The notes under the pieces were generated by a model. That model saw nothing but the letters and a program-made list of their open reading frames with translations, searched no databases and was not told the origin of the DNA. Shown in pieces: positions 6,570 through 58,850 of a stretch of DNA of 64,000 bases. Made by a program: the position numbers and the translations under genes. How positions within the stretch are numbered: the stretch's first letter is position 1; the number at the start of each line of letters is the position of its first letter. Source of the stretch: Gammaproteobacteria bacterium (lineage in GTDB: Bacteria; Pseudomonadota; Gammaproteobacteria; GCA-001735895); assembly GCA_050291745.1 (NCBI GenBank), contig JBNKKI010000173.1:3428-67427 (forward strand), in the 5' to 3' direction.

Positions 6570-6808
6570 AACCTGGATTCCGCAGTTGATCGCTGGCAAT
6601 AGAGGTTAACCCTCTGTTTCATAAAGCATGACAGTTGATATGTATAATCACCCAATCGGTGCATCCCGCTACGAACTGAATTGCAGGTTTGAGGTGGTGT
6701 ATCTCTTCGTTGTAACGCCCTGGAAGAGCAGGCTATTGCGCGTCGTTATGCCTTGATCTACAGCACCTCAAATACACAATCAACTCGTCCAACTGCGGAT
6801 TCCAGGTT
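6570..6808 (+). repeat. MITE-like repeat family A, full-length copy A1 (~239 bp), + orientation
   Basis: Left end AACCTGGATTCCGCAGTTGATCG is inverted at the right end as CGTCCAACTGCGGATTCCAGGTT. Internal nested inverted repeats; other copies at 18259, 20954, 26057, 55599, 58606. Confidence 0.75.
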
Positions 6809-7782: not shown

Positions 7783-7882
7783 TACCCTGTTGATATTAAG
7801 TAGTTTGCGCCTTTCCATCTGATCTGTTTTTCTAGAGCTATTCCTTTTCATGCTGATAATTCAGCAAATTTCGAGGTGGAAA

Positions 7883-9514
7883 ATGTTAGATCGAGTTAAT
7901 TATCTGTCCATTCATATTGATGAAGTTTTAAGCGAAGGCGGTTATCCGCAGGAAGCGCAAAACATCATAAAGGCTGAAAATCTATTACCTCAGGGGCTGG
8001 TGAATCGCCTGCATAATCTGTATCCGCAGTATTCTATTCTCAATCGTACAACTCCACCGATTTTTACCGAGCGTCAAAACTACACCGGTTTGAAAGGCTT
8101 TCGTCTTGTTTGCAAAACGCTGGCTGAACATGGAATTCATATCGATCATATCCTTGAACGGGAACTTTTTATTGAAGTTTATCGTTTTCTGGCAACCCGC
8201 CACACTTTGAATAGCATTGACTGGGATCATTACCAGACTGATAGTGTATTTCAACTGGTTTTTCCACAACCGGGTATGATTCAGCAAAATGTGGTTGACA
8301 GATACCTTGCAGCTCCCAATGCAGAAGCTCGCTCGAAAGTTGCCAGGGACTATATGCATGAAACTAACCCGCATGATGGTAATCAGCAACTCAATAAGCC
8401 CTGGTTTAAAAATGAAGATGGCGATCTTGAAGTGCTGGCAGGTAGTCAGCATAAATACCCGCAGACTCAGCTTATTTTTGATAAATCCACCCAGCACTGT
8501 TTTTCATTCTGTACTTATTGTTTCCGTCACGCTCAGGTACGCGGAGATGAAGATATGTTTTTACAGCAGGATATAAATCAAATTCATCAATATCTTCGTA
8601 AACACAAAGAGGTAACTGACTTGCTAATCACCGGTGGTGATGGTGGATTTATGCCAGCTGAGCGTTTACTGCAATATGTTGAACCACTTTTTGATGATGT
8701 TGAATTAATCCACATCCGAACTGTTCGCCTGGCAACCCGATCACTGACATTTCAGCCTGAAATGGTTTTGACTGAAAAATACCGGAAAATGCTCGGAGTG
8801 TTCGACAAAATGCATGAAAATGGTATACAGCTTGCGTGGATGGCTCATTTTTCAACACCGAAAGAGTTACTCAATCCTATGACTATTGCGGCAATACGTC
8901 GTTTACAGCAACATGGTGTAGCGATCCGTAGCCAAAGTCCTATGATGAAACATATCAGTTTATTTCCTAAACAGGATGGTTCAACCGATATTGAAAAATC
9001 AGCTCAAAACTGGATTGATCTGGCACTTATTCAGAATACATTGCAAGTAGGATTCCATTCAATGTATTGCGCACGTCCAACCGGTGAACATCATTACTAC
9101 ACAGCACCACTGGTCGATGTAATCAAAATATTTAATCTAATCTATCGCTCACTACCATCGATTGCCAGACCGACCCGGCACATCTCTATGACTACATCGG
9201 CAGGTAAATTATCTTTGATGGGTCTTTCCGAAATTAATGGTGAAACGGTTATTGCGTTAAAGTTTAATGAAGCCCGTAATATGCAATGGATAGATAAAGT
9301 TTTTCATGCTAAATATAACCCGCGTACAAATGATGTTAATTTGTTACAGGCTGTCGAGGGTGACAGTTTCTTTTTTCAGCAGGAACTTGAAGAAATTGAA
9401 CAAGCATTAGAAGATTCATTAAAAGAAGCAATGAGTACGTCCAGAAATATTCATATGGATAAAACTCTGCAACAGGACCAGTCTGCAGAAACAGATTTTC
9501 CACAGGCTTTTTAA
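7883..9514 (+). CDS. KamA-family radical SAM aminomutase (lysine 2,3-aminomutase-like) with ~190-aa N-terminal extension
   Basis: CFSFCTYCFRH (CxxxCxxC) followed by LITGGDGG, homologous to the KamA core. Start placed at ATG 7883 (GAGGTGG RBS) rather than ATG 7850, which has no RBS. Confidence 0.8.
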   Translation: MLDRVNYLSIHIDEVLSEGGYPQEAQNIIKAENLLPQGLVNRLHNLYPQYSILNRTTPPIFTERQNYTGLKGFRLVCKTLAEHGIHIDHILERELFIEVYRFLATRHTLNSIDWDHYQTDSVFQLVFPQPGMIQQNVVDRYLAAPNAEARSKVARDYMHETNPHDGNQQLNKPWFKNEDGDLEVLAGSQHKYPQTQLIFDKSTQHCFSFCTYCFRHAQVRGDEDMFLQQDINQIHQYLRKHKEVTDLLITGGDGGFMPAERLLQYVEPLFDDVELIHIRTVRLATRSLTFQPEMVLTEKYRKMLGVFDKMHENGIQLAWMAHFSTPKELLNPMTIAAIRRLQQHGVAIRSQSPMMKHISLFPKQDGSTDIEKSAQNWIDLALIQNTLQVGFHSMYCARPTGEHHYYTAPLVDVIKIFNLIYRSLPSIARPTRHISMTTSAGKLSLMGLSEINGETVIALKFNEARNMQWIDKVFHAKYNPRTNDVNLLQAVEGDSFFFQQELEEIEQALEDSLKEAMSTSRNIHMDKTLQQDQSAETDFPQAF

Positions 9515-18258: not shown

Positions 18259-18390
18259 AACCTGGAATCCGCAGTTGGACGAGTCAGTTCGTAGCGGGAT
18301 GTCCCGATTGGGTGATTATACACATCAACTGTCATGGTTTATGAAACAGTGGGTTAAGCTCTATTGCGAGCGGTCAACTGCGGAATTCAG
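18259..18390 (-). repeat. MITE-like repeat family A, truncated copy A2 (~132 bp), inverted orientation
   Basis: Begins AACCTGGAATCCGCAGTTGGACGAGT (inverse of A1 right end) and ends GAGCGGTCAACTGCGGAATTCAG; lacks the ~105-bp internal stem-loop module. Confidence 0.7.
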
Positions 18391-18424: not shown

Positions 18425-19846
18425 ATGAATCAATTGCTGGACGAAACACACCAACCCAAAGCCCACCTTGAAGGAACACTAAGTCAGCGGGTTAAATTTG
18501 AATGGGCGACACTGGCCCGTCTGGGCGCCCCCATTTTAATTGCTCAATTAGCACAAATGGCGAATGGTGTCATCGATACCCTGATGGCAGGACGAGCCAG
18601 TGCTGATGATTTAACCGGAGTAGCTATAGGCTATAGCTTATGGGTGCCGATTTTCCTTTTTGTCATAGGCGTGTTAAATGCTCAGCAACCACTTATCTCC
18701 GGTTTTAACGGTGCCAAACAATTTGAAAAGGTTTCTCCTGTTGCCTGGCATGGTATTTATTTTGCGATTTTGGCCGCCATCGCCGCAATTATTGGATTAA
18801 ATCAGATTGACCCAGTTTTACAGTGGTTAAAAATGGAAGCTAACCCGGCGACAATAACCAATGGATATTTATTTGCGTTTTCCATGGGTATACCGGCAAT
18901 TCTGTTAATTCTAGCACTACGCGGATTGACCGATGGACTGGGTCATACGCGTATCATCATGGTGTTTACCATAATATCAACTGCGATCAATACGCCTCTT
19001 AATTACATTTTTATTTTTGGTAAGTTTGGTTTTCCCGAAATGGGTGGTGTCGGATGCGGTTGGGCCACTACGATTGCTAACTGGATCGCAGTGATTGCGC
19101 TATGGATTTATATTCACCGGGCCAGGACATTTAAACGATTTCATCTATGGTCAAATCGAATGAGGCCCAATTTTGAACAGTTTAAGACATTATTGCGACT
19201 GGGTATTCCCATTGGCTTTACTATTTTTGTTGAAGCTACAATGTTTTCTGTTATCGCCCTGTTACTGGCACCGCTAGGCTCAATTGTTGTTGCCGGTCAT
19301 CAAATTGCACTCAATATCGTCAGTGTCCTGTTTATGGTGCCGCTCAGCCTCGGTATGGCGCTCACCTTGCGTATCAGTTTCCTGATTGGTGCTAATCAAT
19401 GTGACAGTGTACGTCTTGTCGCTCGCAGCTCAATTATTCTGGCTCTGATCATTGCCTTCAGTTTTGCCACATTTTTACTGTTTAATAGAGCCACCCTGGT
19501 AGGATGGTACAGTAATGATAAGGATGTTCTGTTAATGGCGACTCACTTATTACTTTTTGGTGCAGTGTTTCAAATTGCAGATGTAGTCCAGGTGAGTTGT
19601 ATTAGTGCATTACGTGGATTTAAAGATACCCGTATTCCCATGTTTATCATGCTGTTTTCCTTTTGGGTAATTGGCATTCCGCTAGGCTATAGTCTGACTT
19701 TTAATAACTGGATAACTGAGCCAATGGGTGCAGCTGGTTTCTGGGCAGGATTAATTGCCGGTCTGGCCCATGCCGCCTTCTGGTTAATTTTACGATTGAT
19801 GTGGATAAGTCGAAAAATTGCAGATCAACAGGTTTTTCCAGGTTAA
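18425..19846 (+). CDS. MATE-family multidrug efflux transporter (NorM-like)
   Basis: 473 aa, 12 predicted TMs, N-terminal LARLGAPILIAQLAQMANGVIDTLMAGR characteristic of MATE/NorM. Confidence 0.85.
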   Translation: MNQLLDETHQPKAHLEGTLSQRVKFEWATLARLGAPILIAQLAQMANGVIDTLMAGRASADDLTGVAIGYSLWVPIFLFVIGVLNAQQPLISGFNGAKQFEKVSPVAWHGIYFAILAAIAAIIGLNQIDPVLQWLKMEANPATITNGYLFAFSMGIPAILLILALRGLTDGLGHTRIIMVFTIISTAINTPLNYIFIFGKFGFPEMGGVGCGWATTIANWIAVIALWIYIHRARTFKRFHLWSNRMRPNFEQFKTLLRLGIPIGFTIFVEATMFSVIALLLAPLGSIVVAGHQIALNIVSVLFMVPLSLGMALTLRISFLIGANQCDSVRLVARSSIILALIIAFSFATFLLFNRATLVGWYSNDKDVLLMATHLLLFGAVFQIADVVQVSCISALRGFKDTRIPMFIMLFSFWVIGIPLGYSLTFNNWITEPMGAAGFWAGLIAGLAHAAFWLILRLMWISRKIADQQVFPG

Positions 19847-20807: not shown

Positions 20808-20953
20808 CTATTTTAGAGCAAATTCGATTAGTAAACTGATATTTTGCAGATCAACTCAGGGTTGTGAAAAAGTTATTGATCCGCCTGGTGAAACGCTATA
20901 AATTCAGCAATCTGCTCAAATCCTGTAGATATTAGACAGAGATAGAAAGGTTA

Positions 20954-21080
20954 AACCTGCAATTCAATTCGTAGCGGGATACACTGATTGGGTGATTTTT
21001 TCACATCATACACATCAACTGTCATGATTAAAACAGTGGATTAATCTCTATAGCGGGCGTTCTACTGCGCAATTCAGGTT
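20954..21080 (-). repeat. MITE-like repeat family A, short core copy A3 (~127 bp), inverted orientation
   Basis: AACCTGCAATTCAATTCGTAGCGGGATACACTGATTGGGTGATT...CATCAACTGTCATGATTAAAACAGTGGATTAATCTCTATAGCGGGCGTTCTACTGCGCAATTCAGGTT; has its own TIR AACCTGCAATTC/GAATTGCGC..AGGTT. Confidence 0.65.
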
Positions 21081-21177
21081 TAATTGTAAAGAATTGTTAC
21101 GAAGTTAATTAAGGCAAAATAAATACTTAAAAACTTGATAAACTACTTTTCTTTTAACTTGGCCCAGATGGAAAATC

Positions 21178-22269
21178 ATGAATTGTGCTTCAACTCCCCT
21201 AGCCAGAATACTGAGTTTATTTTTAATACTTTGGTTTACTCCACTAGCAGCGAGTGAATATATTGTTAAGCCCGGTGATACACTGACAGGCATAGCCAGA
21301 CAACGCATAAGCCCTGATCTCCAATATAATTCACCACAAGTCGTTCAATTTATTAATCAGGTAATGCAACAAAATCCATTGCAGTTTCCACAAAATAACC
21401 CGAACCAGCTATCCATTGGCATGAAATTAAACCTTCCCGATGGGAATCCCGTTCCAGAACCAAAGCCTGAGCCAGTCGTCGAAACAATCCCGGAAATCAA
21501 AGTGCCTGAAAAAATAATGGCACAAATCAGCCGCTTAAAAGGAACTGGCTGGATTATGCATAGTGACGAATCTAAAGAACCACTAGTTGTCGGTCAAACT
21601 GTAAAGCAGGGCGATAGTATCCGTACAGAGCTGGATTCACAGGCAGTTGTTGAATTTGCTGATCAAGCCAGCCTGACGGTTAAAGAATCCAGTCAGGTTA
21701 ATATTGCAGAATATCACTGGGATGAACAGGCTGGTACAGGTCGTTCAATTATAAATTTTCTGCAAGGAGCATTCCGCGCTGTTTCTGGCCTGATTGGAAA
21801 AAAAGATCCTAATGACTATGCCGTCAACACACCCGTAGCGACCATAGGAATCAGGGGAACAGATTTTGGCGCACGCTATTGCGCAAGCAGTAGTTGTGAG
21901 ATAAAAACAGGAGAAAACACAGTGACACTATCTCAAGGTATTTACATTGGTGTCCTTGATGGGCAAATCAGTTCTCATAGTGATGGCAAGGAAACCCTGG
22001 TAGATGCGGGCGAAGCCATATATCAGAAAGATGCCCAATCACCGGTTAAGCCGATTAAAAACCTGCCGGGTATTATATTCAGTGAAGCGGAAATAAAAAC
22101 ATATGCCCCGGCTCCCATGACAGTAATAGAACCAACTAAAATGGATAAAATACCATTTTACCAGGCCTTCTGGCTCAACAGTCAGGGAAATGTTATGAAA
22201 GATAGTCAGGGTAATTGTATCCGTAGTAGTGATTACCGTACCGATCATCATGTTGTTGAATGCCAGTGA
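21178..22269 (+). CDS. Secreted LysM-domain / FecR-domain protein
   Basis: Signal peptide (LFLILWFTPLAAS), LysM-like YIVKPGDTLTGIARQ...LSIGMKLNLP, then FecR-like beta-sandwich region (VVEFADQASLTVKESSQVNIAEYH...). Confidence 0.6.
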   Translation: MNCASTPLARILSLFLILWFTPLAASEYIVKPGDTLTGIARQRISPDLQYNSPQVVQFINQVMQQNPLQFPQNNPNQLSIGMKLNLPDGNPVPEPKPEPVVETIPEIKVPEKIMAQISRLKGTGWIMHSDESKEPLVVGQTVKQGDSIRTELDSQAVVEFADQASLTVKESSQVNIAEYHWDEQAGTGRSIINFLQGAFRAVSGLIGKKDPNDYAVNTPVATIGIRGTDFGARYCASSSCEIKTGENTVTLSQGIYIGVLDGQISSHSDGKETLVDAGEAIYQKDAQSPVKPIKNLPGIIFSEAEIKTYAPAPMTVIEPTKMDKIPFYQAFWLNSQGNVMKDSQGNCIRSSDYRTDHHVVECQ

Positions 22270-22289
22270 AGCAGTAACAGGCTTTCAAT

Positions 22290-22492
22290 CTGGAAAAATC
22301 AGTTAATCATGAAAGTCCAGGTAACAGCTTAATGCAGCTGATAAAATCAAAAACACGCTCATCACAAATCAGCTGACTACGCTGTTTTTGATTTCCCGGC
22401 AATTGCTCTACCTACAGCCATCTCTGGCTTAGACCAGGCGCATCAATCTGTTACGCATCTTTTTCACGCTGAACTGATTTTTCCAGGTTCAA
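22290..22492 (+). repeat. Repeat family B copy B1 (~203 bp)
   Basis: CTGGAAAAATCAGTTAATCATGAAAGTCCAGGTAACAGCTTAATGCAGCTGATAAAATCAAAAACAC...TTGATTTCCCGGCAATTGCTC...GCATCTTTTTCACGCTGAACTGATTTTTCCAGGTTCAA; two further copies at 24801 and 26449. Confidence 0.65.
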
Positions 22493-22525
22493 CTCGTCCA
22501 ACTGCGGTTTCCAGGTTCAGGCTAA
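22489..22525 (+). repeat. Family A right-terminus fragment (A4) abutting family B copy
   Basis: TTCAACTCGTCCAACTGCGGTTTCCAGGTTCAGG matches the A-element right end only. Confidence 0.5.
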
Positions 22526-22889
22526 AACTATTCCTTTTTACCTGGATGAGTTTAATAAGGCGGGAGTGAAACAGTGGAAAACTTGACCCAGTATCAGTAA
22601 CTGTCTATTGGCTGTTTGCTATATGTGAACGGTTATACAGAGGAAATTAGAGTTTAGAAAAGGAGATGAATGTGCTGTTATGAATGAAAATCCCTATGCT
22701 ATTGTTGGTTGAGTAAGCAAGGAGAGTCTCCCCCAGGCTTTTCATAGAACCGTAAGTGAAGCTATCGATTTATACGGTTCTTATTATCATTCAGTCAAAC
22801 ACGTAACAAACTCCAGTGCACAAAATAATTAGGGTAGTTGCACTTAATTCGCTTCACTAACAATGGATTAAGTCGCGACTGCGCGCGGC

Positions 22890-23519
22890 CTATCCATTTT
22901 TGTTAGAATTTTTTCTATTAATCCTACAAGTGTAAAGGCCAGCTAAACCTGTAACAAACAGTAGTAAAACCGCAGGTGCAGGTACCGAACTTATAGTACC
23001 GCTGACGTTGGAAGAAAGATTACCGAACTGGGTTTGAAAGCCCTGGGAGGCGCTTACGCGAAACTTGTCAATCGAACTATTAAGAACCAGATCAAACAAT
23101 TCGGATGAGCTACCTGGAGAAAAAAATGGATTTGTGCCTATGTTAAATTGAATACTGAAGAGAGAAGCCGAGATGCCATTAATAGTTGGGCCACTACCTG
23201 TAAAATCCAAAAGGAACCAGCCTGCTGAATTGATCGTTGATATAGAAGCTCCTTCAGCATTAAACGTTTGCGCCCCAAAAACGCTATCAATCCAGTCAAA
23301 TGTCCCAGTAACATTATCTATCACTGATGAGCCTATGGTTCCAGAACCAATGTTGAAGGTAACGTTTGAAGTTAGTGTTGTGCCAATAGGTAATAAATCT
23401 GTAGCTATTGAAAGGCCATCGGTCATATCAGCAGATGCATTTACTGAAATCAACGATGCTTGAACATTAGCTGTAAAGGCTAGTGCTAATGCACATACCA
23501 GTGAATAAAAGATTTTCAT
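22890..23519 (-). CDS. Secreted Ser/Thr/Gly/Asn-rich protein with PEP-CTERM/VPLPA-CTERM-like C-terminal sorting signal
   Basis: N-terminal signal peptide MKIFYSLVCALALAFTANVQA; C-terminus ...SSVPAPAVLLLFVTGLAGLYTCRINRKNSNKNG = Pro-x-Pro motif, hydrophobic helix, basic cluster as in exosortase substrates. Confidence 0.55.
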   Translation of the reverse strand: MKIFYSLVCALALAFTANVQASLISVNASADMTDGLSIATDLLPIGTTLTSNVTFNIGSGTIGSSVIDNVTGTFDWIDSVFGAQTFNAEGASISTINSAGWFLLDFTGSGPTINGISASLFSIQFNIGTNPFFSPGSSSELFDLVLNSSIDKFRVSASQGFQTQFGNLSSNVSGTISSVPAPAVLLLFVTGLAGLYTCRINRKNSNKNG

Positions 23520-23671
23520 ATATACTCCGTGTTGTATTATTTTTTAAACTCTAGCAGTTTAAAAAAAGGAAGCAAAAATATACAAATATAGTTGGATTCC
23601 TTCAATTTCCGTAATATTACTTTTTGTTTAGAATATATTAATGGGCAGACAATGGTAATGTCAATGAATTA

Positions 23672-23896
23672 ATGAACAAGATAGAGAAAGAAAAATGTCT
23701 TGAAATAATTGCTCTCCACAATCGAGGTGACGGTGTTATTGGTGCTAGCGATGATATGGAAGATATTATTAATCTATTGAATGGACGAAAAGAATTTGAA
23801 GTTGAAGTTCAGACTTTGACTAAGGAGTTGAAAGAATTTCTCAGAGATGAAGCCGAAGCTTTCTTGCCTGGTCCGTCATTAAGCGAAGCAATATGA
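23672..23896 (+). CDS. Hypothetical small acidic protein (74 aa)
   Basis: Open frame only, no family recognised; in AT-rich accessory island. Confidence 0.3.
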   Translation: MNKIEKEKCLEIIALHNRGDGVIGASDDMEDIINLLNGRKEFEVEVQTLTKELKEFLRDEAEAFLPGPSLSEAI

Positions 23897-24034
23897 TGGC
23901 ATTTACTACCAGATGAAATTTTTCAGAAGTTGAGGGCTATTACCCGATTATAAAATAATGTGGCACAATTGATGACTAAAGAAAGCTAATTAGTGTAGAG
24001 CTATTTTTAAATATATTGTTGGAGAGCGAAGCCT

Positions 24035-24056
24035 GTCCCTGGCTGCAAGCCAGGAC
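24035..24056 (+). terminator. GC-rich hairpin (GTCCCTGGC-TGCAA-GCCAGGAC) followed by T-rich tract, candidate intrinsic terminator
   Basis: 8-9 bp near-perfect stem, 5-nt loop, then GTGGACTTTATTTATAG; ~140 bp downstream of ORF 23672-23896. Confidence 0.3.
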
Positions 24057-24800
24057 GTGGACTTTATTTATAGTAAATAGCTTGATCGACTAATTAGGGT
24101 CAAAGTAATATAAGAGTTTTTAAAATGATATCGAATATACTTAGAAAATCACAAAATGATAAGTCTTCAATATTATGAAAAGAAAATTTAAATTATTTAT
24201 ATTGGCAAAAACTTCAAACAAATAAAATATTTAGAAATAATAAGGAAAAAAATGGAGAAAATACTGTTGCTTTTATTAGTCAAGGATCTTGTGAATGGGA
24301 AGAAGTTTATTCTACTGATGCTTTAAACCACAAACAAATATTCCTAAGAATGATTTCTGATGCAGCTATTGATACTAATTATCTGGAGGAAATTTATTTT
24401 AATGTTTTTAAATAATATGCTTAAATGGAAACGTATATCTTGTGCGCTATCTTTTGAGCTCAACAGATTGGCGTAAAGAGAAATTATTATAAATATTGAA
24501 TGAGTTGGGGCTTTCAAGAAAGGTGATTAGTACTGGTAAATAGAACCAGAGTACATTTTTTGTGAAACTTTAACTATCAAGTCTGAGGAAGGTTAAGAAG
24601 TGGAGCGACATAATAAGCTAAAGTACAGAGACACCACGGGGTCTGTTTATTGGTTAAGTACTCAGCAAATTCTTAAATACGATACCCTTTATAAAGAGAG
24701 TAGTAAGGTGAATGACGGCATAGTTTATAGTCTTTTATATACTCAACTCAAGCTTCATTTTTGGCTGTTATATTGTCAAAAGCTCTGTAGTGTACATTAA

Positions 24801-25013
24801 CCTAGAAAAATCAGTTGAATCATGAAAGTCTACGTAACAGCTTAATGCAGCTGATAAAATCAAAAACACAGTCTTCACCAATCAGCTGACTACGGTGTTT
24901 TTAATTTGCCGGCAATTGCTCCTGCATTGCTCTAACTACAGCCATCCCCGGCTTAGACCAGGCAAATCAATCTGTTACGCATCTTTTTCACGCTCAACTG
25001 GTTTTTCTAGGAT
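24801..25013 (+). repeat. Repeat family B copy B2 (~213 bp), immediately upstream of OMP-like gene
   Basis: CCTAGAAAAATCAGTTGAATCATGAAAGTCTACGTAACAGCTTAATGCAGCTGATAAAATCAAAAACAC...GCATCTTTTTCACGCTCAACTGGTTTTTCTAGGATT; carries a 14-bp perfect inverted repeat AAAATCAAAAACAC/GTGTTTTTAATTTG. Confidence 0.7.
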
Positions 25014-25035
25014 TAAAGAATTAAATAAATTTCAT

Positions 25036-25722
25036 ATGATAAGAGTAATTACGTCCATAATTTTTTTATATCTGGCCAGTTTTTCACAAATGTCATATTC
25101 AAATGAAGATAGTGAGGAGACGACTTTATATGATCGCTTTATCCAAAATACTTTTAGTATACAGATGAAAGATATTAAATCCGGAATATCAATTACAAAC
25201 TCAGCGGTAATTTTTAGATATGACGAGCCAATTGGAGCTGGCGTTATAGATCTGGTTGCTAAGTTAGATGGTATAGACTTTTCATACAATCAATATTTTA
25301 CTAACCAGTTTGGTGTTGAGTATGGAGTATATTATGGTAGTACAGATGTTCTATATTATGATTTTCTAAAAAAGAAAGATGAAAAGAAATATATATTTTC
25401 TGTTCCTATGTCTAGTTATTCTGATTATAGAAATGTGAGTGTTTACGGAATAAGAAGTACAATTATTGGTGGATTATATCTTCGAGATCCAGGATTCCGG
25501 GTGTTTCTTGGGTTAGGGGGATATTTAGATTATATTGAGTTAGATAGAGTAGATGGTCGTAGTTTAGTTGAAATCGATATCGGTTCAGCTATTAAATTCG
25601 GGTTAGGGTATAATTGGGAAAAAATTTCTGTAGATTTTTGGGGAAGTGTTAGGTCAGATGGGCCCACTGGATTTAGCTCGAAAACAGCACAAGGTGGATG
25701 GCGGCTCACCTATTATTTTTGA
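25036..25722 (+). CDS. Putative outer-membrane beta-barrel-like protein (228 aa)
   Basis: Start set at ATG 25036 just after repeat B2 (the track ORF starts inside the repeat); N-terminal hydrophobic signal-like segment ITSIIFLYLASFSQMSYS, alternating Tyr/Gly-rich strands, C-terminal ...WRLTYYF ending in Phe. Confidence 0.5.
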   Translation: MIRVITSIIFLYLASFSQMSYSNEDSEETTLYDRFIQNTFSIQMKDIKSGISITNSAVIFRYDEPIGAGVIDLVAKLDGIDFSYNQYFTNQFGVEYGVYYGSTDVLYYDFLKKKDEKKYIFSVPMSSYSDYRNVSVYGIRSTIIGGLYLRDPGFRVFLGLGGYLDYIELDRVDGRSLVEIDIGSAIKFGLGYNWEKISVDFWGSVRSDGPTGFSSKTAQGGWRLTYYF

Positions 25723-26056
25723 TAATATGAAATTATTTTACATATTTTTTATTTTACCAATGATGAGATTGTTAACGGGTTAACCTTATAAGCTGGCGGC
25801 TTAAGTTGAAAATAGGATAAATTTTAGAGGTAAAATCTTATTTGATGGAATCCAGATTCAAACATCTTTTTAAGATGCAGTAACTGAGCTTGAGTTAACA
25901 GAAAAAAGACAGAGAAGTTGCTCTTAAGTAGAGAAATTAATAAGCCCAGGAACAGGGGCAGATAGTAATATCAGAGATACTCATAATTTTATGAAAAAAC
26001 TGATTAAAGGTTGTCGAGATAGAATTATTCCAAACTATGTCCCTTGTGATCATAAT

Positions 26057-26291
26057 CCTAGATTCCGCAGATGACCGCTCGCAATAGAGGTTAACCCACT
26101 GTTTCATAAACCATGACAGTTGATTTGTATAATCACCTAATCGGTGCATCACGCTACGGACTGAATTGCAGGTTTGAGGCGGCGTATCTCTTCGTTGTAA
26201 CTCCTTGGAATAGCTCGCTATTCCGCGTCGTTACGCCTTGATCTACACCACCTCAAACGCACAATCAATTCGTCCAACTACGGATTCTAGG
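26057..26291 (+). repeat. MITE-like repeat family A, full-length copy A5 (~235 bp), + orientation
   Basis: CCTAGATTCCGCAGATGACCGCTCGCAATAGAGGTTAACCC...CAATTCGTCCAACTACGGATTCTAGG; >85% identical to A1/A7 by eye. Confidence 0.75.
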
Positions 26292-26448
26292 ATAATCAAA
26301 GCTTTGCAATGAATGCAGGCTGCAAAAATCTTAAGGGCTTAAGAGACTAAAGTTAAAAAACCAGGATTTAAGTTAGATCAAGAAATTTATTGAAAAAAAA
26401 CATCATAAAAGGCAAAGTGATGTTTTTAATAGTAATCTCAAGCTTAAT

Positions 26449-26662
26449 CCTAGAAAAATCAGTTGAATCATGAAAGTCTATGTAACATCTTAATGCACCT
26501 GATAAAATCAAAAACACACTCTTCACCAATCAGGTGACTATGGTGTTTTTGATTTGCCGGCAATTGCTCCTGCATTGCTCTAACTACAGCCATCTCTGGC
26601 TTAGACCAGGCGCATCAATCTGTTACGCATCTTTTTCACGCTCAACTGATTTTTCTAGGTTA
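26449..26662 (+). repeat. Repeat family B copy B3 (~214 bp), immediately upstream of lipoprotein gene
   Basis: Near-identical to B2 (CCTAGAAAAATCAGTTGAATCATGAAAGTCTATGTAACATCTTAATGCACCTGATAAAATCAAAAACAC...CTCAACTGATTTTTCTAGGTT). Confidence 0.7.
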
Positions 26663-26725
26663 ATGGAATCATGTCCTGTATGGTCTTTTTCTACAGCCTC
26701 ATTATATAAAAAAGGAAAAACTGAA

Positions 26726-27616
26726 ATGATTAATAAATATTTAGTACTACCAGTTCTATTCAGCATTATATTATCGGGTTGTGGTGGCTCAGGTGATAAG
26801 GAGGATGAACTAATTTTAGGTGATCTTTATGACAAAAAACCTGGAGATGTGTTTACAACATCAAGAACCATAAATCTTGCATATTCAAATGGACAAAATG
26901 CTGAAGTCAGCGCTACTGGGGAAAGTACATATTCTGATATTAGTGATATTCCTTCTAAATATGATTATTCAAACTCTAATAATGGTCCATATGTGCTAGA
27001 AACTTTTAAAATAGATGATGAACCTTTTCAATTGTTTTATATGACAGAATCTGGCGATAGTATTATTGACGACGATTTTGAATTTTTTTCGAGTGTTGAA
27101 TATAGGACTGAAAGCGGTAAGGCTAAACCTGAGAATATTTATATGGGTGATGAATTTAGTTATAATATAAATTCAACTTTATTCGATTCTCAATCAGGAG
27201 TAGAAGCAGGTTATGAAATCCAAAATATAGATTTTACTGTGTTAAAGGTAGAGCAATTGATAGTGCCTGCAGGTTCATTTAATGCTGTTAAAATCGGATA
27301 TAGCTTTTCTTCCACAACTTCAGAGAATGCTGTTGTTAATACGATGTCAGAAACAGGTTACGTGTGGTTTGATACTACAAATGGCTTTCTTCTTAAAGAA
27401 GAGAAAAATGGAAATATGACACTAAACGAATTAAGTCTAACGGCGACATTTTCAGCAGAGACTATATTGCAGAGTTATTCAATTTCTCAAAATAAATCAG
27501 CTAAAAATAGTTCTGCTGCAAGAGCAGGTAAGAATTCGTCACTTATAGATATCAATCCATTGTTTATTTATCATAATATAAAGCAGAATATCCAAAAGCT
27601 TAGTTTGCTAAAATAA
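26726..27616 (+). CDS. Hypothetical lipoprotein (296 aa)
   Basis: Start set at ATG 26726 (AAGGA RBS) giving MINKYLVLPVLFSIILSGCGGSG with lipobox LSGC; the track ORF begins inside repeat B3 and reproduces the same spurious N-terminus as the OMP-like gene. Confidence 0.6.
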   Translation: MINKYLVLPVLFSIILSGCGGSGDKEDELILGDLYDKKPGDVFTTSRTINLAYSNGQNAEVSATGESTYSDISDIPSKYDYSNSNNGPYVLETFKIDDEPFQLFYMTESGDSIIDDDFEFFSSVEYRTESGKAKPENIYMGDEFSYNINSTLFDSQSGVEAGYEIQNIDFTVLKVEQLIVPAGSFNAVKIGYSFSSTTSENAVVNTMSETGYVWFDTTNGFLLKEEKNGNMTLNELSLTATFSAETILQSYSISQNKSAKNSSAARAGKNSSLIDINPLFIYHNIKQNIQKLSLLK

Positions 27617-27698
27617 AACTGGATAACTCGTAGATTGTTCTGCAGTATTCAAAACGCTTTCTCTATAAACTTTAAAGATATTCCTGGAATATAACAGA

Positions 27699-28466
27699 AT
27701 GGCACAGCGAAAAATATCAGATAAAGAAACTATAGATCTTTCTGGTAAATCTAACTTTAGTGATTTATCTCCGTTAAGTAACTTTACAAAGATGCAACGA
27801 CTTGATTTATCTGATACAGCTGTTGAAGATCTCAGTCCTATTGCTAATTGTCGACAGTTAAAAGTGCTTCGCTTATCCCGTTCCCCGGTTAAAGACCTTA
27901 GTCCTATTGCTTCTCTAACAGAACTGGAAGAATTGCAAATTCAACAAACTCTGGTAAATGATCTGTCACCATTGACGCAGCTTAATAAGCTTCAATGGCT
28001 AAGAGCATCACATTGCTTTTTTACCGATATCCAGGCGCTTCGTGGAAAAAATGAGCTTGGACGACTTGAAATATCGAATTGCCCGGTTAAAGATTTTTCA
28101 CCACTTAAGGATATAAGCTCTTTAGTCATGCTTGTGTTACTTAATACGGGTTTTGACGATTGCTCACTGCTGTCAAATAATACTGGACTGGCAAATCTTA
28201 ATTTAGCACGAACCGAGATCAGCAATATTGATGCTCTTGCTGGTCTTGCTAAGCTGTGGCGTTTAGACCTTCAAGGTACTGTAATCTCTGATTACTCCGC
28301 TTTACTGGGACTTGCAAAATTAAGCGAGCTTTCTGTTGGGGATTATCTGAGCAAAGAAGAGTATGGTGGCTTAGATAATATTCCAGTATCAGAGTTAAAC
28401 CTGAACTGGGAAACATTTTCTGGTGAAGATGAAGTGCAAGCGTTTATTTCTTCGCGTATGTCTTAA
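27699..28466 (+). CDS. Leucine-rich-repeat protein, internalin-like 22-residue repeats, no signal peptide
   Basis: Nine or more tandem repeats of the L-x-x-L-x-L-x-x-T-x-V-x-D-L-S-P-L form (DLSPLSNFTKMQRLDLSDTAVE / DLSPIANCRQLKVLRLSRSPVK / DLSPIASLTELEELQIQQTLVN ...). Confidence 0.7.
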   Translation: MAQRKISDKETIDLSGKSNFSDLSPLSNFTKMQRLDLSDTAVEDLSPIANCRQLKVLRLSRSPVKDLSPIASLTELEELQIQQTLVNDLSPLTQLNKLQWLRASHCFFTDIQALRGKNELGRLEISNCPVKDFSPLKDISSLVMLVLLNTGFDDCSLLSNNTGLANLNLARTEISNIDALAGLAKLWRLDLQGTVISDYSALLGLAKLSELSVGDYLSKEEYGGLDNIPVSELNLNWETFSGEDEVQAFISSRMS

Positions 28467-28643
28467 GGATATTCTGGGTTGGGTGTATTGAGGAATGAAA
28501 TAGTTTCAATCAAGGTGCCAGAGCTCAGGTAAATAAATCCATTCGCAGATGACTTATTGACGTTTAATTTTTTAAAATAGGGATTAATTTGATGTAAGTT
28601 TGATGTTGCTGTTTGATTTTTTGTGTCTGGAACCATTTATATT

Positions 28644-49792: not shown

Positions 49793-49904
49793 AGTTATCG
49801 CTGAATCTGCTGCTTCAACTGATTTTTCCAGGTTCAATTCTACTCCTCCATCAAAAGCCATTACTGTTCATGTGACAGTAATGGCTCATAAGTAATTATT
49901 ATTT

Positions 49905-49994: not shown

Positions 49995-50690
49995 ATGATG
50001 CTAGTCACCGAAGCCCCTGTTACATCAGCCGATAAAACTTTTTTCAAGTTAAGAGCGGATATTGTAGAAGGTGAAATTCTGGCTGGCTCCAAGCTAAGTG
50101 AAGCTGAATTGTCGACAAAATATGGTGTCAGTCGCGCAGTTATCCGGGAAGCTATAAATCGTCTTGAATTCTGTCATCTGGTAGAACGTAAGGCTAATAT
50201 TGGCGCTAGAGTTGTCGCAATAACCGCAACAGGGCTGGCAGAACTATATGAAGTGCGAGAAGCGCTTGAAGGTATGGCGGCACGTCTTGCCGCGATTCAT
50301 ATGACGGATCAGCAAATAAAAGATTTAAACAGTTTACTGGATAGCCATCTAAAAACCGTTCAAAACGGTGATTCTTATTATCAGGAAGCGGGTGATCTGG
50401 ATTTCCATTACCGCATAGTCCAGGGTAGTAAAAACAAACATTTGATCTCTGTTTTGATTGATAGTAATTACCACCTGATCCGTATGTATCGTGTGCAATT
50501 AGGAATGGCTGGCCCCAGAGTTTCCACCGCTTTTGAAGAGCATAGGCAGGTAGCCAAAGCAATTTCCAATCGTGATGCGGAGCTCGCTGAAATTTTAATG
50601 CGCCGACATATCCTTTATACAAAAAATAGCCTTGAACAAAAAATAAATAAAACTAATAACCAGAAACCTGAAAAAATCAGAGAGCAATAA
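49995..50690 (+). CDS. GntR-family (FadR/FCD subfamily) transcriptional regulator, PrpR-like by context
   Basis: N-terminal wHTH (LSEAELSTKYGVSRAVIREAINRLE) and FCD ligand-binding domain; sits between prpC and acnD as in Vibrio/Shewanella-type methylcitrate loci. Confidence 0.8.
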   Translation: MMLVTEAPVTSADKTFFKLRADIVEGEILAGSKLSEAELSTKYGVSRAVIREAINRLEFCHLVERKANIGARVVAITATGLAELYEVREALEGMAARLAAIHMTDQQIKDLNSLLDSHLKTVQNGDSYYQEAGDLDFHYRIVQGSKNKHLISVLIDSNYHLIRMYRVQLGMAGPRVSTAFEEHRQVAKAISNRDAELAEILMRRHILYTKNSLEQKINKTNNQKPEKIREQ

Positions 50691-54524: not shown

Positions 54525-55520
54525 ATGACAACATTCCCTGCATGGCAAGTTAACAAAACGGATGAAGGTACATCTGTTTCACTCACTGAATTGACTCTGG
54601 ACAACTTAACGGATGGAGACGTCACGATTCAAATAGAATACTCCGGCTTAAATTATAAAGATGGTCTGGCAATGACAAAAAGTGCCCTGATCATTAAAAA
54701 TTATCCTCTGATTCCCGGAATTGATTTCGCAGGTACGGTTATTCAATCAGAAACTGATAAGTTCAAAGCAGGTGACAAGGTTATCTTAACCGGTTATGGC
54801 GTCGGTGAAAAATATAATGGTGGTTATGCAGGGATTGCCAGAGTTAAAAGTGAATGGCTGGTGCCTTTACCGGATAATATGAGCACAAGACAGGCCATGG
54901 CCATAGGCACTGCAGGTTTTACAGCCATGTTATGTATTCTGGCACTGCAAAATCATGGCGTTAAAGCAGAAGATGGAAATATATTAATCAGTGGTGCTGC
55001 TGGAGGCGTCGGTAGTATCGCTGTATCTATTTTGCATAAACTGGGTTACAAAGTAACCGCGATGACTGGCAGAATGCATGAGGCAGATTATTTGCATCAG
55101 TTAGGTGCTAGCGACATCATTGACAGGAATGAGTTTGCAGGCAAGCCACGACCACTGGCGAAAGAAAACTGGGCTGCAGCGATAGATGTGGCAGGTGGTT
55201 TTACGCTGGCCAATATTTTAACGCAAATTAAAGCACAGGGAGCTGTTGCTGCCTGTGGACTGGCAGAATCAATGGATTTACCAACATCTGTGGCCCCCTT
55301 TATTTTACGTGGAATCAGTTTATATGGTATTGACTCAGTCTATTGCCCGAATCATAAAAGACTCGATGCCTGGCAAAGACTGTCACAGGACCTGGATTTA
55401 AATTCACTCGAATCAATGGTCACGGAAATTGAATTTAATGATATTCCACAAGCTGCGAAAGAAATTTTAAAGGGTCAGATTCGCGGACGTGTGATTGTTA
55501 ATCTGGAAAAATCAGTTTAG
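54525..55520 (+). CDS. MDR-superfamily NADPH-dependent reductase, YhdH/AcuI (acrylyl-CoA reductase)-like
   Basis: 331 aa, zinc-independent MDR; AAGGVGS nucleotide-binding motif; collinear with E. coli YhdH-type proteins; adjacent to propionate genes. Confidence 0.7.
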   Translation: MTTFPAWQVNKTDEGTSVSLTELTLDNLTDGDVTIQIEYSGLNYKDGLAMTKSALIIKNYPLIPGIDFAGTVIQSETDKFKAGDKVILTGYGVGEKYNGGYAGIARVKSEWLVPLPDNMSTRQAMAIGTAGFTAMLCILALQNHGVKAEDGNILISGAAGGVGSIAVSILHKLGYKVTAMTGRMHEADYLHQLGASDIIDRNEFAGKPRPLAKENWAAAIDVAGGFTLANILTQIKAQGAVAACGLAESMDLPTSVAPFILRGISLYGIDSVYCPNHKRLDAWQRLSQDLDLNSLESMVTEIEFNDIPQAAKEILKGQIRGRVIVNLEKSV

Positions 55521-55598
55521 CGTGAAAAAACCTGACAGATTGATGTAGATGATCTAAGCCAGGGATGGCTGAAAGTGTTTTGATTTTATCATCCCATT

Positions 55599-55844
55599 AA
55601 ACCTGGATTCCGCAGTTGACCGCTCGCAATAACCATGACCCTAGATTCCACAGTTGACCGCTCGCAATAGAGATTAACCCACTGTTTCATAAACGATTAC
55701 AGTTGATGTGTATAATCACCCAATCGGTGAATCCCGCTACGAACTGAATTGCAGGTTTGAGGCGGTGTATCTCTCCGTTGTAACGCCTTGATCTACACCA
55801 GCTTAAACACACAATCAACTCGTCCGACAGCGGATTCCGGGTTT
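55599..55844 (+). repeat. MITE-like repeat family A, copy A6 (~246 bp) with tandemly duplicated left terminus
   Basis: AACCTGGATTCCGCAGTTGACCGCTCGCAATAACCATGACCCTAGATTCCACAGTTGACCGCTCGCAATAGAG... = two left ends in tandem; right end CGTCCGACAGCGGATTCCGGGTT. Confidence 0.75.
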
Positions 55845-58605: not shown

Positions 58606-58850
58606 TATCTATGATCCTGGATTCCGCAGTTGACCGCTCGCAATAGAGGTTAACCCACTGTTTCATAAACCATGACAGTTGATGTGTATAATCACCCAAT
58701 CGATGCATCCCGCTACGAACTGAATTGCAGGTTTGAGGCTGCGTATCTCTTCGTTGTAACTCCTTGCAATAGCTGGCTATTCCGCGTCGTTACGCCTTGA
58801 TCTACACCACCTCAAACGCACAATCAACTCGTCCAACTGCGAATTCTAGC
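58606..58850 (+). repeat. MITE-like repeat family A, full-length copy A7 (~245 bp); its right end contains the stop codon of the hybrid kinase gene
   Basis: CCTGGATTCCGCAGTTGACCGCTCGCAATAGAGGTTAACCC...CTCGTCCAACTGCGAATTCTAGC; minus-strand TAG (58846-58848) lies inside GAATTCTAGC. Confidence 0.75.

What the first reader, a model, noticed from the sequence alone, without database searches (positions are those of the whole stretch)
22290..26662. Second repeat family (B) gives two unrelated surface-protein genes identical 5' regions
Three ~210-bp copies (22290-22492, 24801-25013, 26449-26662) share >90% identity. B2 ends 22 bp before the OMP-like gene and B3 ends 63 bp before the lipoprotein gene. 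As a result the six-frame track gives both genes the same spurious N-terminal extension (MFLICRQLLLHCSNYSH...). Each copy contains a perfect 14-bp inverted repeat AAAATCAAAAACAC(N25)GTGTTTTTGATTTG. The element may be a mobile promoter/leader or regulatory cassette that co-regulates surface-protein genes of the island.
Basis: seen in the sequence. Interest (0 to 1): 0.55.

Follow-up and report, generated by a model that had tools for sequence, protein, structure and literature searches.

The report
Small hairpin transposon (MITE) copies
The three ~200-bp repeats are copies of a small non-coding transposon (a MITE) that happened to land upstream of two surface-protein genes; this is an ordinary kind of bacterial mobile DNA, although this family seems undescribed.

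Summary
The three repeats are real: 22289-22487, 24801-25011 and 26449-26659, all on the + strand. Each copy ends in inverted repeats, CCTAGAAAAATCAGTTGA...TCAACTGATTTTTCTAGG. Each is flanked by a 5-bp A/T-rich direct duplication: TTCAA, ATTAA, TTAAT.

Sixteen full copies, from the window and from marine Gammaproteobacteria MAGs and metagenome contigs, were measured for flanks. Twelve have perfect 5-bp flank duplications; shifted-register controls give 0-1. The element has no coding capacity and folds into one long hairpin whose pairing is kept by compensatory changes.

It is therefore a MITE. The CCTAGA tips, the 5-bp duplication and the sister family A (CCTAGATTCCGCAG, compared with ISEcp1 CCTAGATTCTACGT) point to an IS1380-type transposase. 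No such gene was found.

The "identical 5' regions" and the shared N-terminal extension are by-products of two insertions, 24 and 66 bp upstream of the true ATGs.

A dedicated promoter or regulatory cassette is not supported:
- Copies also lie between convergent genes and in gene 3' ends.
- They occur in both orientations.
- They sit next to unrelated housekeeping genes.

Incidental promoter or RNA-hairpin effects remain possible. Verdict: new member of a known kind, low interest.

The parts
22289..22487 (+). MITE copy B1 (199 bp). Ends are TCTGGAAAAATCAGTT-AA / TGAACTGATTTTTCCAGG. The 5-bp duplication TTCAA lies at 22284-22288 and 22488-22492. It sits 19 bp after the stop of the FecR/LysM-like gene 21178-22269 (+), and the next gene (22890-23519) is on the - strand.
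24801..25011 (+). MITE copy B2 (211 bp). Terminal inverted repeats have 17/18 complementary. The duplication ATTAA lies at 24796-24800 and 25012-25016. The right end is 24 bp upstream of ATG 25036.
26449..26659 (+). MITE copy B3 (211 bp). Terminal inverted repeats are a perfect 18 bp, CCTAGAAAAATCAGTTGA / TCAACTGATTTTTCTAGG. The duplication TTAAT lies at 26444-26448 and 26660-26664. The right end is 66 bp upstream of ATG 26726. The inner palindrome is 26505-26527 / 26533-26555.
55502..55600 (-). Partial, diverged B copy in reverse orientation. Its end supplies the last six codons and the stop (NLEKSV*) of the ADH-like gene 54525-55520. Relatives end in KVPQ* or KIPD*.
49815..49832 (-). Solo B end (CCTGGAAAAATCAGTTGA), with TTCAA both overlapping its inner end and following its tip. 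It looks like a deletion footprint of a former copy. It lies 22 bp after the stop of the citrate-synthase-family (prpC-like) gene.
19825..19842 (-). Solo B-like end (3 mismatches) that forms the last codons and the stop region of the MatE gene 18425-19846.
22493..22515 (+). Right-end fragment of sister MITE family A (CTCGTCCAACTGCGGTTTCCAGG), directly after B1's duplication.
26057..26291 (+). Family A MITE copy (235 bp). Ends are CCTAGATTCCGCAG... / ...CGGATTCTAGG. The duplication ATAAT lies at 26052-26056 and 26292-26296. It sits 157 bp upstream of B3.
6572..6806 (+). Family A MITE copy with duplication TTCAA. Other A copies or fragments are at 55602-55639, 55640-55841, 58616-58850, 18261-18385 (-) and 20953-21082 (-).
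25036..25722 (+). OMP-like gene (228 aa). It has a hydrophobic, signal-peptide-like N-terminus and the C-terminal sequence ...LTYYF, and no Pfam hit. The true start is ATG 25036; the upstream 47 codons of ORF 24895-25722 are MITE read-through.
26726..27616 (+). Lipoprotein gene (296 aa, lipobox LSGC, weak DUF3108-like hit). The true start is ATG 26726; the upstream 64 codons of ORF 26534-27616 are MITE plus spacer read-through.

Best explanation
Family B is a non-autonomous DNA transposon, a bacterial MITE. Its core is about 163 bp. The window's copies are 199-211 bp because they carry an extra 37-49-nt internal module.

The element encodes nothing. It consists of 18-nt, extendable to about 46-nt, terminal inverted repeats around a palindromic interior, so the whole element can fold back on itself.

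A transposase supplied in trans binds the two ends and inserts the element at A/T-rich pentanucleotides, which are duplicated on insertion. That enzyme is most likely of the IS1380 family, and it is not encoded in this window. This step is inferred.

A/T-rich pentamers are common at stop codons (TAA, TGA), in intergenic DNA and in the 32-37% GC block at about 23-28.6 kb. Copies therefore accumulate just after genes, just before genes and in that block.

B2 and B3 landed independently 24 and 66 bp upstream of two unrelated genes. This gives those genes an identical upstream sequence and, by frame coincidence, the same artefactual ORF extension.

Any effect on those genes is a side effect of insertion. 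Possible effects are a long hairpin in a read-through 5' UTR, displacement of the native promoter, or a weak internal promoter. The element does not look like a cassette that evolved to regulate them.

Shown: the repeats, the inverted ends, the duplications, the lack of coding capacity, the multi-genome spread and the hairpin covariation. Inferred: the transposase family, trans-mobilisation and any expression effects.
For: Anatomy:
- Perfect 18-bp terminal inverted repeats in B3; 44-46 nt at 72-75% complementarity in B1 and B2.
- 5-bp direct duplications flank all three window copies.

Other genomes:
- Pattern scans recovered copies in marine Gammaproteobacteria MAGs and in 18 metagenome stretches.
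- 12 of 16 full copies have perfect 5-bp duplications. Two of 12 shifted-register controls gave a single perfect match and the other ten none, over 21 elements.
- The duplicated pentamers are 88% A/T.

Non-coding:
- Stops occur in all frames except one 62-codon stretch, whose only database homologue is another MITE-encoded ORF.
- No Rfam family matches.
- No ORF of 100 aa or more in the window matched a transposase family; one 554-aa ORF (7850-9514) has no Pfam hit at all.

Hairpin:
- RNA fold z-scores are -11.2 (+ strand) and -11.9 (- strand).
- On 9 copies, 12 of 50 pairs show double compensatory changes, against 4.5 +/- 1.5 in shuffles and 0-3 in slid controls.
- At the ends, pair 24/242 is UA in 7 copies and CG in 7 copies of 18.

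IS1380 link:
- ISEcp1's IRL is CCTAGATTCTACGT and it makes 5-bp direct repeats (PMC6061673; read directly from a plasmid copy).
- Family A ends, CCTAGATTCCGCAG, share 10/14 with that IRL and 11/14 with the IRR.
- An IS1247-like element ends in CCTGCATTCCCCAAGT.
- B shares the CCTAGA tip and the CAGTTGA block with A. An intermediate end variant, CCTGGATTAATCAGTTGA, occurs in L033, with related ATTAATC-type ends in L030 and L036.

Insertion rather than cassette:
- B1 and the copies in L009, L029 and L035 lie between convergent genes.
- A copy replaces the C-terminus of an ADH-like gene, compared with syntenic relatives that lack it.

Multi-copy:
- Unitigs of the only public read set holding the window's exact proteins break 27 nt into B1 and about 20 nt into an A copy, as expected for multi-copy repeats.
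Against: - No autonomous element with matching ends was found. tblastn with the ISEcp1 transposase found nothing in 342 kb of held sequence.
- The left-end pattern scan of metagenomes returned only MITE-like or truncated copies.
- B's own ends match ISEcp1's IRL at only 7 of 14 positions, so the family assignment rests on the tip, the duplication length and the bridge through family A.
- Compensatory conservation of the interior and the 89% conserved apical palindrome TCACCAATCAGGTGA suggest some constraint beyond transposase binding at the tips. That constraint is unexplained.
- Transposition has not been observed.
Confidence: 0.85

Rival explanations
1. Mobile promoter. The element carries an outward-reading promoter, perhaps the former transposase promoter of its parent IS. 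That promoter drives whatever gene lies beyond its right end, here the OMP-like and lipoprotein genes.
For: - An extended -10-like motif, TGATAAAAT, sits at element positions 52-60 reading towards the right end in B1-B3 (22339, 24852, 26500). Eight of the 18 aligned copies carry TGATAAAAT exactly, and L006 and L035 carry one-mismatch variants.
- B2 ends only 24 bp before the ATG, so transcription must start in it or pass through it.
- Where a copy adjoins a gene start, the right end faces it in 9 of 12 cases.
- IS1380-family elements ISEcp1 and ISPme1 carry strong outward promoters (PMC9330008).
- Some MITEs have promoter activity (PMC4133298).
Against: - The consensus scan finds no -35/-10 pair in any copy. 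The relaxed scan gives only a 15-nt-spacer candidate.
- The TGNTAWAAT motif is common in this window: 15 observed against 11 expected.
- The motif is absent from the other subfamilies: L002, L005, L022, L025, L029, L031, L034 and L037.
- A 9:3 orientation split is not significant (p about 0.15), and the gene calls behind it are simple ORF heuristics.
- Four full copies and one partial copy lie between convergent genes or inside gene 3' ends, where a promoter would be useless or antisense.
- Neighbouring genes are functionally unrelated.
Confidence: 0.15
2. Structured RNA module. When co-transcribed, the ~-83 to -98 kcal/mol hairpin acts after transcription, as described for Correia and ERIC elements: as an RNase III site, an mRNA stabiliser at 3' ends, or a translation or termination modulator. 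This is compatible with the MITE reading, as a secondary effect.
For: - Very stable fold on both strands.
- Significant compensatory covariation across genomes.
- Many copies lie 1-50 bp after stop codons, so they would be in 3' UTRs.
- MITEs are known to be co-transcribed and to affect transcript stability (PMC4133298).
Against: - Covariation works equally on both strands. G-U and A-C cells are both frequent, so no transcribed strand is indicated.
- Arm-to-arm correction in a DNA palindrome, or descent from symmetric master copies, would give the same pattern without any RNA function.
- No U-tract follows the stem and no terminator-like site was called in any copy.
- No Rfam match.
Confidence: 0.2
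3. Tn3-family derived miniature element (TIME). These also insert into A/T-rich DNA and make 5-bp duplications.
For: The 5-bp A/T-rich duplication and the ~200-bp size resemble TIMEs (PMC4133298).
Against: - Tn3-family ends are ~38-bp repeats that start with GGGG (established knowledge). B starts with CCTAGA and A with CCTAGATTCC, which match IS1380-family ends instead.
- TIMEs are usually single-copy. B and A together have about 14 sites in 64 kb.
Confidence: 0.03
4. Dispersed protein-binding site. The conserved apical palindrome TCACC-N5-GGTGA is an operator for a dimeric regulator or nucleoid protein, so copies form a regulon or have a chromosome-structuring role.
For: The apex is 89% conserved across 18 copies, against 76-80% for the neighbouring stems. 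Some MITEs carry host-factor sites (PMC4133298).
Against: - No known operator was matched.
- Neighbouring genes are unrelated.
- The apex could equally matter for transposition or hairpin nucleation.
- In one subfamily a 49-nt module is inserted right next to it.
Confidence: 0.05
5. Duplicated upstream region. The two genes share a 5' region because a promoter or leader segment was copied by segmental duplication or recombination, not by transposition.
For: B2 and B3 are 94% identical and in the same orientation, 1648 bp apart.
Against: - Similarity stops exactly at the inverted ends.
- Each copy has its own different 5-bp duplication (ATTAA against TTAAT).
- Flanks are unrelated.
- The same element occurs at unrelated loci in other genomes.
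Confidence: 0.01

Closest known systems
Bacterial MITEs in general, e.g. Correia/CREE-NEMIS of Neisseria, ERIC/IRU of enterobacteria, RUP of Streptococcus pneumoniae
   Same: - Small (about 100-250 bp), non-coding and multicopy.
- Terminal inverted repeats and target-site duplication.
- Mostly intergenic, sometimes supplying codons to genes.
- Folds into a long hairpin when transcribed.
   Different: - No sequence similarity.
- The duplication is 5 bp and A/T-rich, rather than the TA typical of Correia and RUP.
- The ends are CCTAGA-type.
- The hosts are uncultured marine Gammaproteobacteria.
- Promoter, IHF or RNase III effects known for Correia are untested here.
IS1380 family insertion sequences (ISEcp1, IS1247, ISPme1)
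   Same: - Ends begin CCTAGA or CCTG.A.
- Family A shares 10-11 of 14 positions with the ISEcp1 IRL and IRR.
- 5-bp A/T-rich direct repeats, as reported for ISEcp1.
- These ISs are known to carry outward promoters.
   Different: - B and A have no transposase gene and are about 8-10 times shorter.
- B's ends diverge from ISEcp1 after the first 6 nt.
- No cognate full-length IS was found.
- IS1380 elements are not whole-length palindromes.
[quoted passage not shown]
   Same: Non-autonomous, ~200-260 bp, insertion into A/T-rich DNA with 5-6-bp duplications, stable predicted transcript folds, weak promoter activity in one orientation.
   Different: TIME ends are Tn3-type 38-bp repeats and TIMEs are usually single-copy. 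B ends are unrelated to these and the family is multicopy.
piggyBac superfamily (eukaryotic relatives of IS1380 transposases)
   Same: CC(C)TAGAAA-type tip (piggyBac end recalled from memory, not tested) and preference for TTAA-like A/T targets. IS1380 is used as the prokaryotic outgroup of piggyBac (PMC10813416).
   Different: piggyBac duplicates exactly TTAA (4 bp) and is eukaryotic. Here the duplication is 5 bp and variable.

Membership tests
MITE (miniature inverted-repeat transposable element) | Small size (about 30-300 bp) | tested here: met
   199-211 bp in the window. The core form elsewhere is 163 bp, with 57-bp and 124-bp mini variants.
MITE (miniature inverted-repeat transposable element) | Terminal inverted repeats | tested here: met
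   18/18 in B3, 17/18 in B2, 15/18 in B1 by the ungapped 18-nt comparison (B1's left end lacks one base); extendable to 44-46 nt at 72-75%.
MITE (miniature inverted-repeat transposable element) | Short direct duplication of the target at both ends | tested here: met
   Perfect 5-bp duplication in 12 of 16 full B copies, and one mismatch in 3 more. Two of 12 shifted-register controls gave a single perfect match and the other ten none, over 21 elements. Family A copies: TTCAA, ATAAT, TTTAA.
MITE (miniature inverted-repeat transposable element) | No transposase or other coding capacity | tested here: met
   Stops in all frames except one 62-codon stretch, whose only homologue is another MITE-derived ORF.
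MITE (miniature inverted-repeat transposable element) | Multicopy, at unrelated loci | tested here: met
   Three full copies, one partial copy and two solo ends in 64 kb. Copies occur at unrelated loci in at least 4 MAGs and 18 metagenome stretches. The copy number in the source genome could not be counted.
MITE (miniature inverted-repeat transposable element) | Mobilised in trans by a cognate transposase | not testable with these tools
   Needs a transposition assay. The only indirect evidence is absence of the insertion at the orthologous ADH 3' end in relatives.
IS1380-family derivative | Ends resemble IS1380-family inverted repeats (CC T A/G . A T T C ...) | tested here: inconclusive
   Family A meets it: 10/14 with the ISEcp1 IRL, 11/14 with the IRR, and close to IS1247-like CCTGCATTCCCCAAGT. 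Family B shares only the first 6 nt, 7/14 overall. It links to A through the shared CAGTTGA block and an intermediate variant, CCTGGATTAATCAGTTGA.
IS1380-family derivative | 4-5-bp target duplication | tested here: met
   5 bp throughout. ISEcp1 makes 5-bp direct repeats (PMC6061673).
IS1380-family derivative | A full-length IS1380-type element with the same ends exists in the host or its relatives | tested here: inconclusive
   None found in the window (Pfam on 52 window ORFs: 51 of the ORFs of 100 aa or more, plus one 74-aa ORF), in 342 kb of held loci or in plasmids. Whole genomes could not be searched.
TIME (Tn3-derived MITE) | ~38-bp Tn3-family terminal repeats (GGGG...) | tested here: not met
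   Ends are CCTAGAAAAATCAGTTGA. The Tn3 repeat consensus is taken from established knowledge.
Correia / ERIC / other curated repeat RNAs | Sequence or structure match to a curated family | tested here: not met
   No Rfam match over any B copy at gathering score or at E up to 1. The terminal sequences were not found in the searched literature.
Sigma-70 promoter cassette | Conserved -35/-10 pair, or extended -10, in all copies, pointing at a downstream gene | tested here: not met
   No consensus site in any copy. The TGATAAAAT motif occurs in one subfamily only. Orientation is mixed and some copies lie in convergent regions. Actual promoter activity is not testable here.

The most novel reading that the evidence does not exclude
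The window's subfamily of the element keeps a functional rightward promoter (extended -10 TGATAAAAT, perhaps the old transposase promoter of an IS1380-type parent). Insertions such as B2 and B3 would then switch on otherwise poorly expressed genes in A/T-rich, horizontally acquired DNA. In addition, the conserved apical palindrome could be a host-factor site. The family would then act as a dispersed, mobile expression module for surface proteins.
Probability: 0.12. Interest if true: 0.5.

Novelty: new member of a known kind. Interest (0 to 1): 0.22.

Why it matters
For annotation, the practical consequences are:
- The two ORF extensions are artefacts, and the true starts are ATG 25036 and ATG 26726.
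- Several gene 3' ends in this window are MITE-encoded.
- Assemblies of this organism break at these repeats.

For biology, it adds an apparently undescribed MITE family, together with its sister family A. Both have IS1380-like ends and occur in uncultured marine Gammaproteobacteria. The family shows unusually clear compensatory maintenance of a whole-element hairpin. It also has a modular internal insert that sits at two different positions in different subfamilies.

It does not reveal a new kind of system.

Tried and rejected
- Rfam at gathering score on the whole window and at E up to 1 on 22200-26800: nothing over the repeats.
- blastn of B and A against 72,556 plasmids: no match.
- First metagenome scan with the right-end pattern: 0 hits. 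The second scan, with a left-end pattern, gave 18 stretches.
- Viral-contig scan with the 18-nt end: one hit inside a phage coding region, taken as chance.
- Protein-database census with the 62-aa MITE-frame peptide: only one cluster, so the family is rare in public data.
- Parent transposase hunt:
  - tblastn of the ISEcp1 transposase against all held DNA: no hit better than E = 1.
  - 'Solo left ends' in L020, L027, L028, L032 and L036 turned out to be truncated or variant MITEs, not IS ends.
  - The extra end-like sites in L033 are intergenic MITE remnants.
- Organism identification: AcnD is too conserved to go beyond 'uncultured marine Gammaproteobacterium' related to MAG Bse_11. The window's exact proteins occur only in Logan unitigs of SRR36185843.
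- Literature search for the terminal sequences: none.
- Segmental duplication and a Tn3-derived origin were considered and rejected (see the rival explanations).
- I ran no further search on a blind IS1380 hunt, because candidates could not be filtered by their ends.

Full report
**Observation**

The region holds three copies of one repeat, all in the same orientation. Aligning them with their flanks shows that similarity begins and ends abruptly: 22289-22487 (B1), 24801-25011 (B2) and 26449-26659 (B3).

- B2 and B3 are 94% identical.
- B1 is 86-87% identical to the other two and lacks an 11-nt tandem duplication.
The ORF listing gives GTG-started ORFs 24895-25722 and 26534-27616, which begin inside the repeat and are in frame with the real genes.
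- The claimed perfect 14-bp inverted repeat in every copy is only approximately right: 13 bp in B3, 12 in B1, mismatched in B2.

- Each copy starts CCTAGAAAAATCAGTTGA and ends TCAACTGATTTTTCTAGG. This is a perfect 18-bp terminal inverted repeat in B3, extendable to 44-46 nt at 72-75% in B1 and B2.
- Each copy is flanked by a direct 5-bp duplication that differs between copies: TTCAA (B1), ATTAA (B2), TTAAT (B3).
- The 18-nt end with up to 3 mismatches occurs 9 times in the window, against 0.10 expected. The extra sites are:
  - A partial reverse copy at 55502-~55600.
  - A solo end at 49815-49832, with TTCAA both overlapping its inner end and following its tip. It looks like a deletion footprint.
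  - A solo end at 19825-19842, inside the last codons of a MatE gene.

**Related sequences**

It returned copies in MAGs labelled Gammaproteobacteria bacterium, and in one MAG binned as Parasphingorhabdus. One of the MAGs, Bse_11 (GCA_024225395.1), is a relative of the window's organism: AcnD is 89% identical and the prp locus is syntenic.

A left-end pattern scan of metagenomes returned 18 stretches. The core form elsewhere is 163 bp.

For 16 full copies I paired the ends automatically. Twelve have perfect 5-bp flank duplications and three more have one mismatch. Two of 12 shifted-register controls gave a single perfect match and the other ten none, over 21 elements. The pentamers are 88% A/T. 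This is the signature of transposition.

**Non-coding, non-autonomous**

- All reading frames are closed except one 62-codon stretch. A search of 5.8 billion proteins with that stretch found one cluster, which is itself an ORF called across another copy.
- None of the 52 window ORFs scanned against Pfam (51 of 100 aa or more, plus one 74-aa ORF) matched a transposase family. The window is ordinary chromosome: rnf, put, prp, ABC transporters and two-component systems. One 554-aa ORF (7850-9514) has no Pfam hit.
- No Rfam family matches.

**Structure**

B3 folds into one long hairpin on either strand: -82.7 and -98.1 kcal/mol, z = -11.2 and -11.9.

- On nine copies from different genomes, 12 of 50 pairs show changes on both sides that keep the pair. 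Column shuffles give 4.5 +/- 1.5 and slid partners give 0-3.
- On 18 copies the two ends co-vary. Pair 24/242 is U-A in 7 copies and C-G in 7.
- Conservation is highest at the ends (92-94%) and at the apical palindrome TCACCAATCAGGTGA (89%). It is lowest in the interior stems (76-80%).
- G-U and A-C cells are both frequent, so no transcribed strand is indicated. The pattern fits a DNA palindrome as well as it fits an RNA.

**Which transposase**

The sister family A (D1; copies at 6572, 26057, 55640 and 58616, plus fragments) begins CCTAGATTCCGCAG and ends ...CGGATTCTAGG. It has its own 5-bp duplications: TTCAA, ATAAT, TTTAA.

- ISEcp1 (IS1380 family) has IRL CCTAGATTCTACGT and makes 5-bp direct repeats (PMC6061673).
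- I read both ISEcp1 ends from a plasmid copy (CCTAGATTCTACGT and CCTAAATTCCACGT), and the ends of an IS1247-like element (CCTGCATTCCCCAAGT).
- Family A matches these at 10-11 of 14 positions.
- B shares CCTAGA and the CAGTTGA block with A. An intermediate end, CCTGGATTAATCAGTTGA, occurs in L033, with related ATTAATC-type ends in L030 and L036.

An IS1380-type enzyme acting in trans is therefore the best-supported mobiliser. No matching full-length element was found, either by tblastn over 342 kb of held sequence or among plasmids. This step stays inferred.

Tn3-derived TIMEs share the 5-bp A/T-rich duplication (PMC4133298). Their GGGG-type 38-bp ends are not present here.

**Is it a regulatory cassette?**

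- B1 lies 19 bp after a FecR/LysM-like gene and faces a gene on the other strand, so both neighbours end there.
- The partial copy supplies the last six codons (NLEKSV*) of an ADH-like gene. Its orthologues in syntenic relatives end KVPQ* or KIPD* and have no insertion.
- With a simple ORF heuristic, copies elsewhere fall into four classes:

| Context | Copies |
|---|---|
| Between convergent genes | L009, L029, L035 |
| Between divergent genes | L022 |
| Right end facing a gene start | B2, B3, L002, L004, L007, L024, L030, L031, L037 |
| Left end facing a gene start | L005, L006, L033 |

- The 9:3 split gives a two-sided binomial p of about 0.15.
- Neighbouring genes are unrelated: a probable clpB (by its N-terminal sequence), the isc operon's fdx, alr and dnaB, and transporters.
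- Many copies sit 1-50 bp after a stop codon. This fits a preference for A/T-rich pentamers, which often contain TAA or TGA.
- The consensus scan finds no promoter-like or terminator-like site in any copy.
- A relaxed scan shows one recurrent feature, TGATAAAAT (extended -10-like) at positions 52-60 reading rightwards. The motif class is common in the window (15 against 11 expected) and is missing from the other subfamilies.
- IS1380 elements and some MITEs do carry outward promoters. An incidental promoter effect therefore cannot be excluded, and I give it about 15%.

**Mechanism, shown and inferred**

- Shown: a small palindromic non-coding element with inverted ends and 5-bp A/T-rich duplications. 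It is multicopy here and in related uncultured marine Gammaproteobacteria, and it inserts in intergenic DNA and in gene ends.
- Inferred: cut-or-copy and insertion by a trans-acting IS1380-type transposase.
- Inferred: enrichment in the 32-37% GC block at about 23-28.6 kb, because targets abound there and insertions are tolerated.
- Inferred: B2 and B3 are independent insertions that now form part of, or displace, the 5' untranslated or promoter regions of the OMP-like and lipoprotein genes.

**Novelty and verdict**

MITEs are well known. This family is not in Rfam, and its terminal sequences were not found in the searched literature. It is a new member of a known kind.

The finding is real, but its interpretation should change from 'regulatory cassette for surface proteins' to 'MITE insertions'. 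Interest is low.

Noticed in passing
window 22708-22782 (-): Sub-threshold Rfam match to group II intron domain V/VI (RF00029, 29.2 bits against gathering score 40, E 0.007). It lies between B1 and the PEP-CTERM-like ORF. Possibly an intron 3' remnant.
   Followed up: no
window 26556-26604 (B3), 24908-24956 (B2), 22395-22432 (B1); L024 ~118-167; L013 7710-7739: The window's B copies are 'long' because of a 37-49-nt internal module (GCAATTGCTCCTGCATTGCTCTAACTACAGCCATC...). A related module sits at a different position, next to the apex, in the long copies L024, L025 and L035. A 30-nt piece of it occurs in an unrelated repeat upstream of prpB in L013. It may be a nested micro-insertion or a recombination module.
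   Followed up: partly
window 6572-6806, 26057-26291, 55602-55841, 58616-58850, 18261-18385 (-), 20953-21082 (-), 22493-22515: Sister MITE family A is ~235 bp, with ISEcp1-like ends CCTAGATTCCGCAG and 5-bp duplications (TTCAA, ATAAT, TTTAA). It includes a short 125-bp form, a tandem or nested left end at 55602, and a right-end fragment abutting B1.
   Followed up: partly
window 55500-55520; 19822-19846; 58846-58850: MITE ends provide the C-terminal codons or the stop of real genes. The ADH-like gene ends NLEKSV* instead of KVPQ*/KIPD* in relatives. The MatE gene ends inside a solo end. The stop of the histidine kinase 58846-61413 (-) lies in the right end of an A copy.
   Followed up: partly
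window ~23000-28600: An A/T-rich block (32-37% GC against about 42% for the window). It holds a PEP-CTERM-like protein, an OMP-like protein, a lipoprotein and an LRR protein, plus B2, B3 and one A copy. It lies between B1 and an EamA gene. It is probably horizontally acquired and is a preferred MITE target.
   Followed up: no
window 49995-50690: A GntR/FCD regulator gene lies between the prpC-like and acnD genes. It is absent from the otherwise syntenic loci of relatives (L013, L017, L018). The solo B end lies just upstream of it.
   Followed up: no
element positions ~73-92 (window 26521-26540 in B3): The apical palindrome TCACCAATCAGGTGA is about as conserved across 18 copies (89%) as the transposon ends, while the stems beside it drift with compensatory changes. 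The reason is unknown.
   Followed up: partly
L013 7560-7670: Relatives carry a different GC-rich hairpin repeat (GTTCCCACGCTCCCGCGTGG...CCACGCAGGAGCGTGGGAAC) upstream of prpB. It is absent from the window.
   Followed up: no
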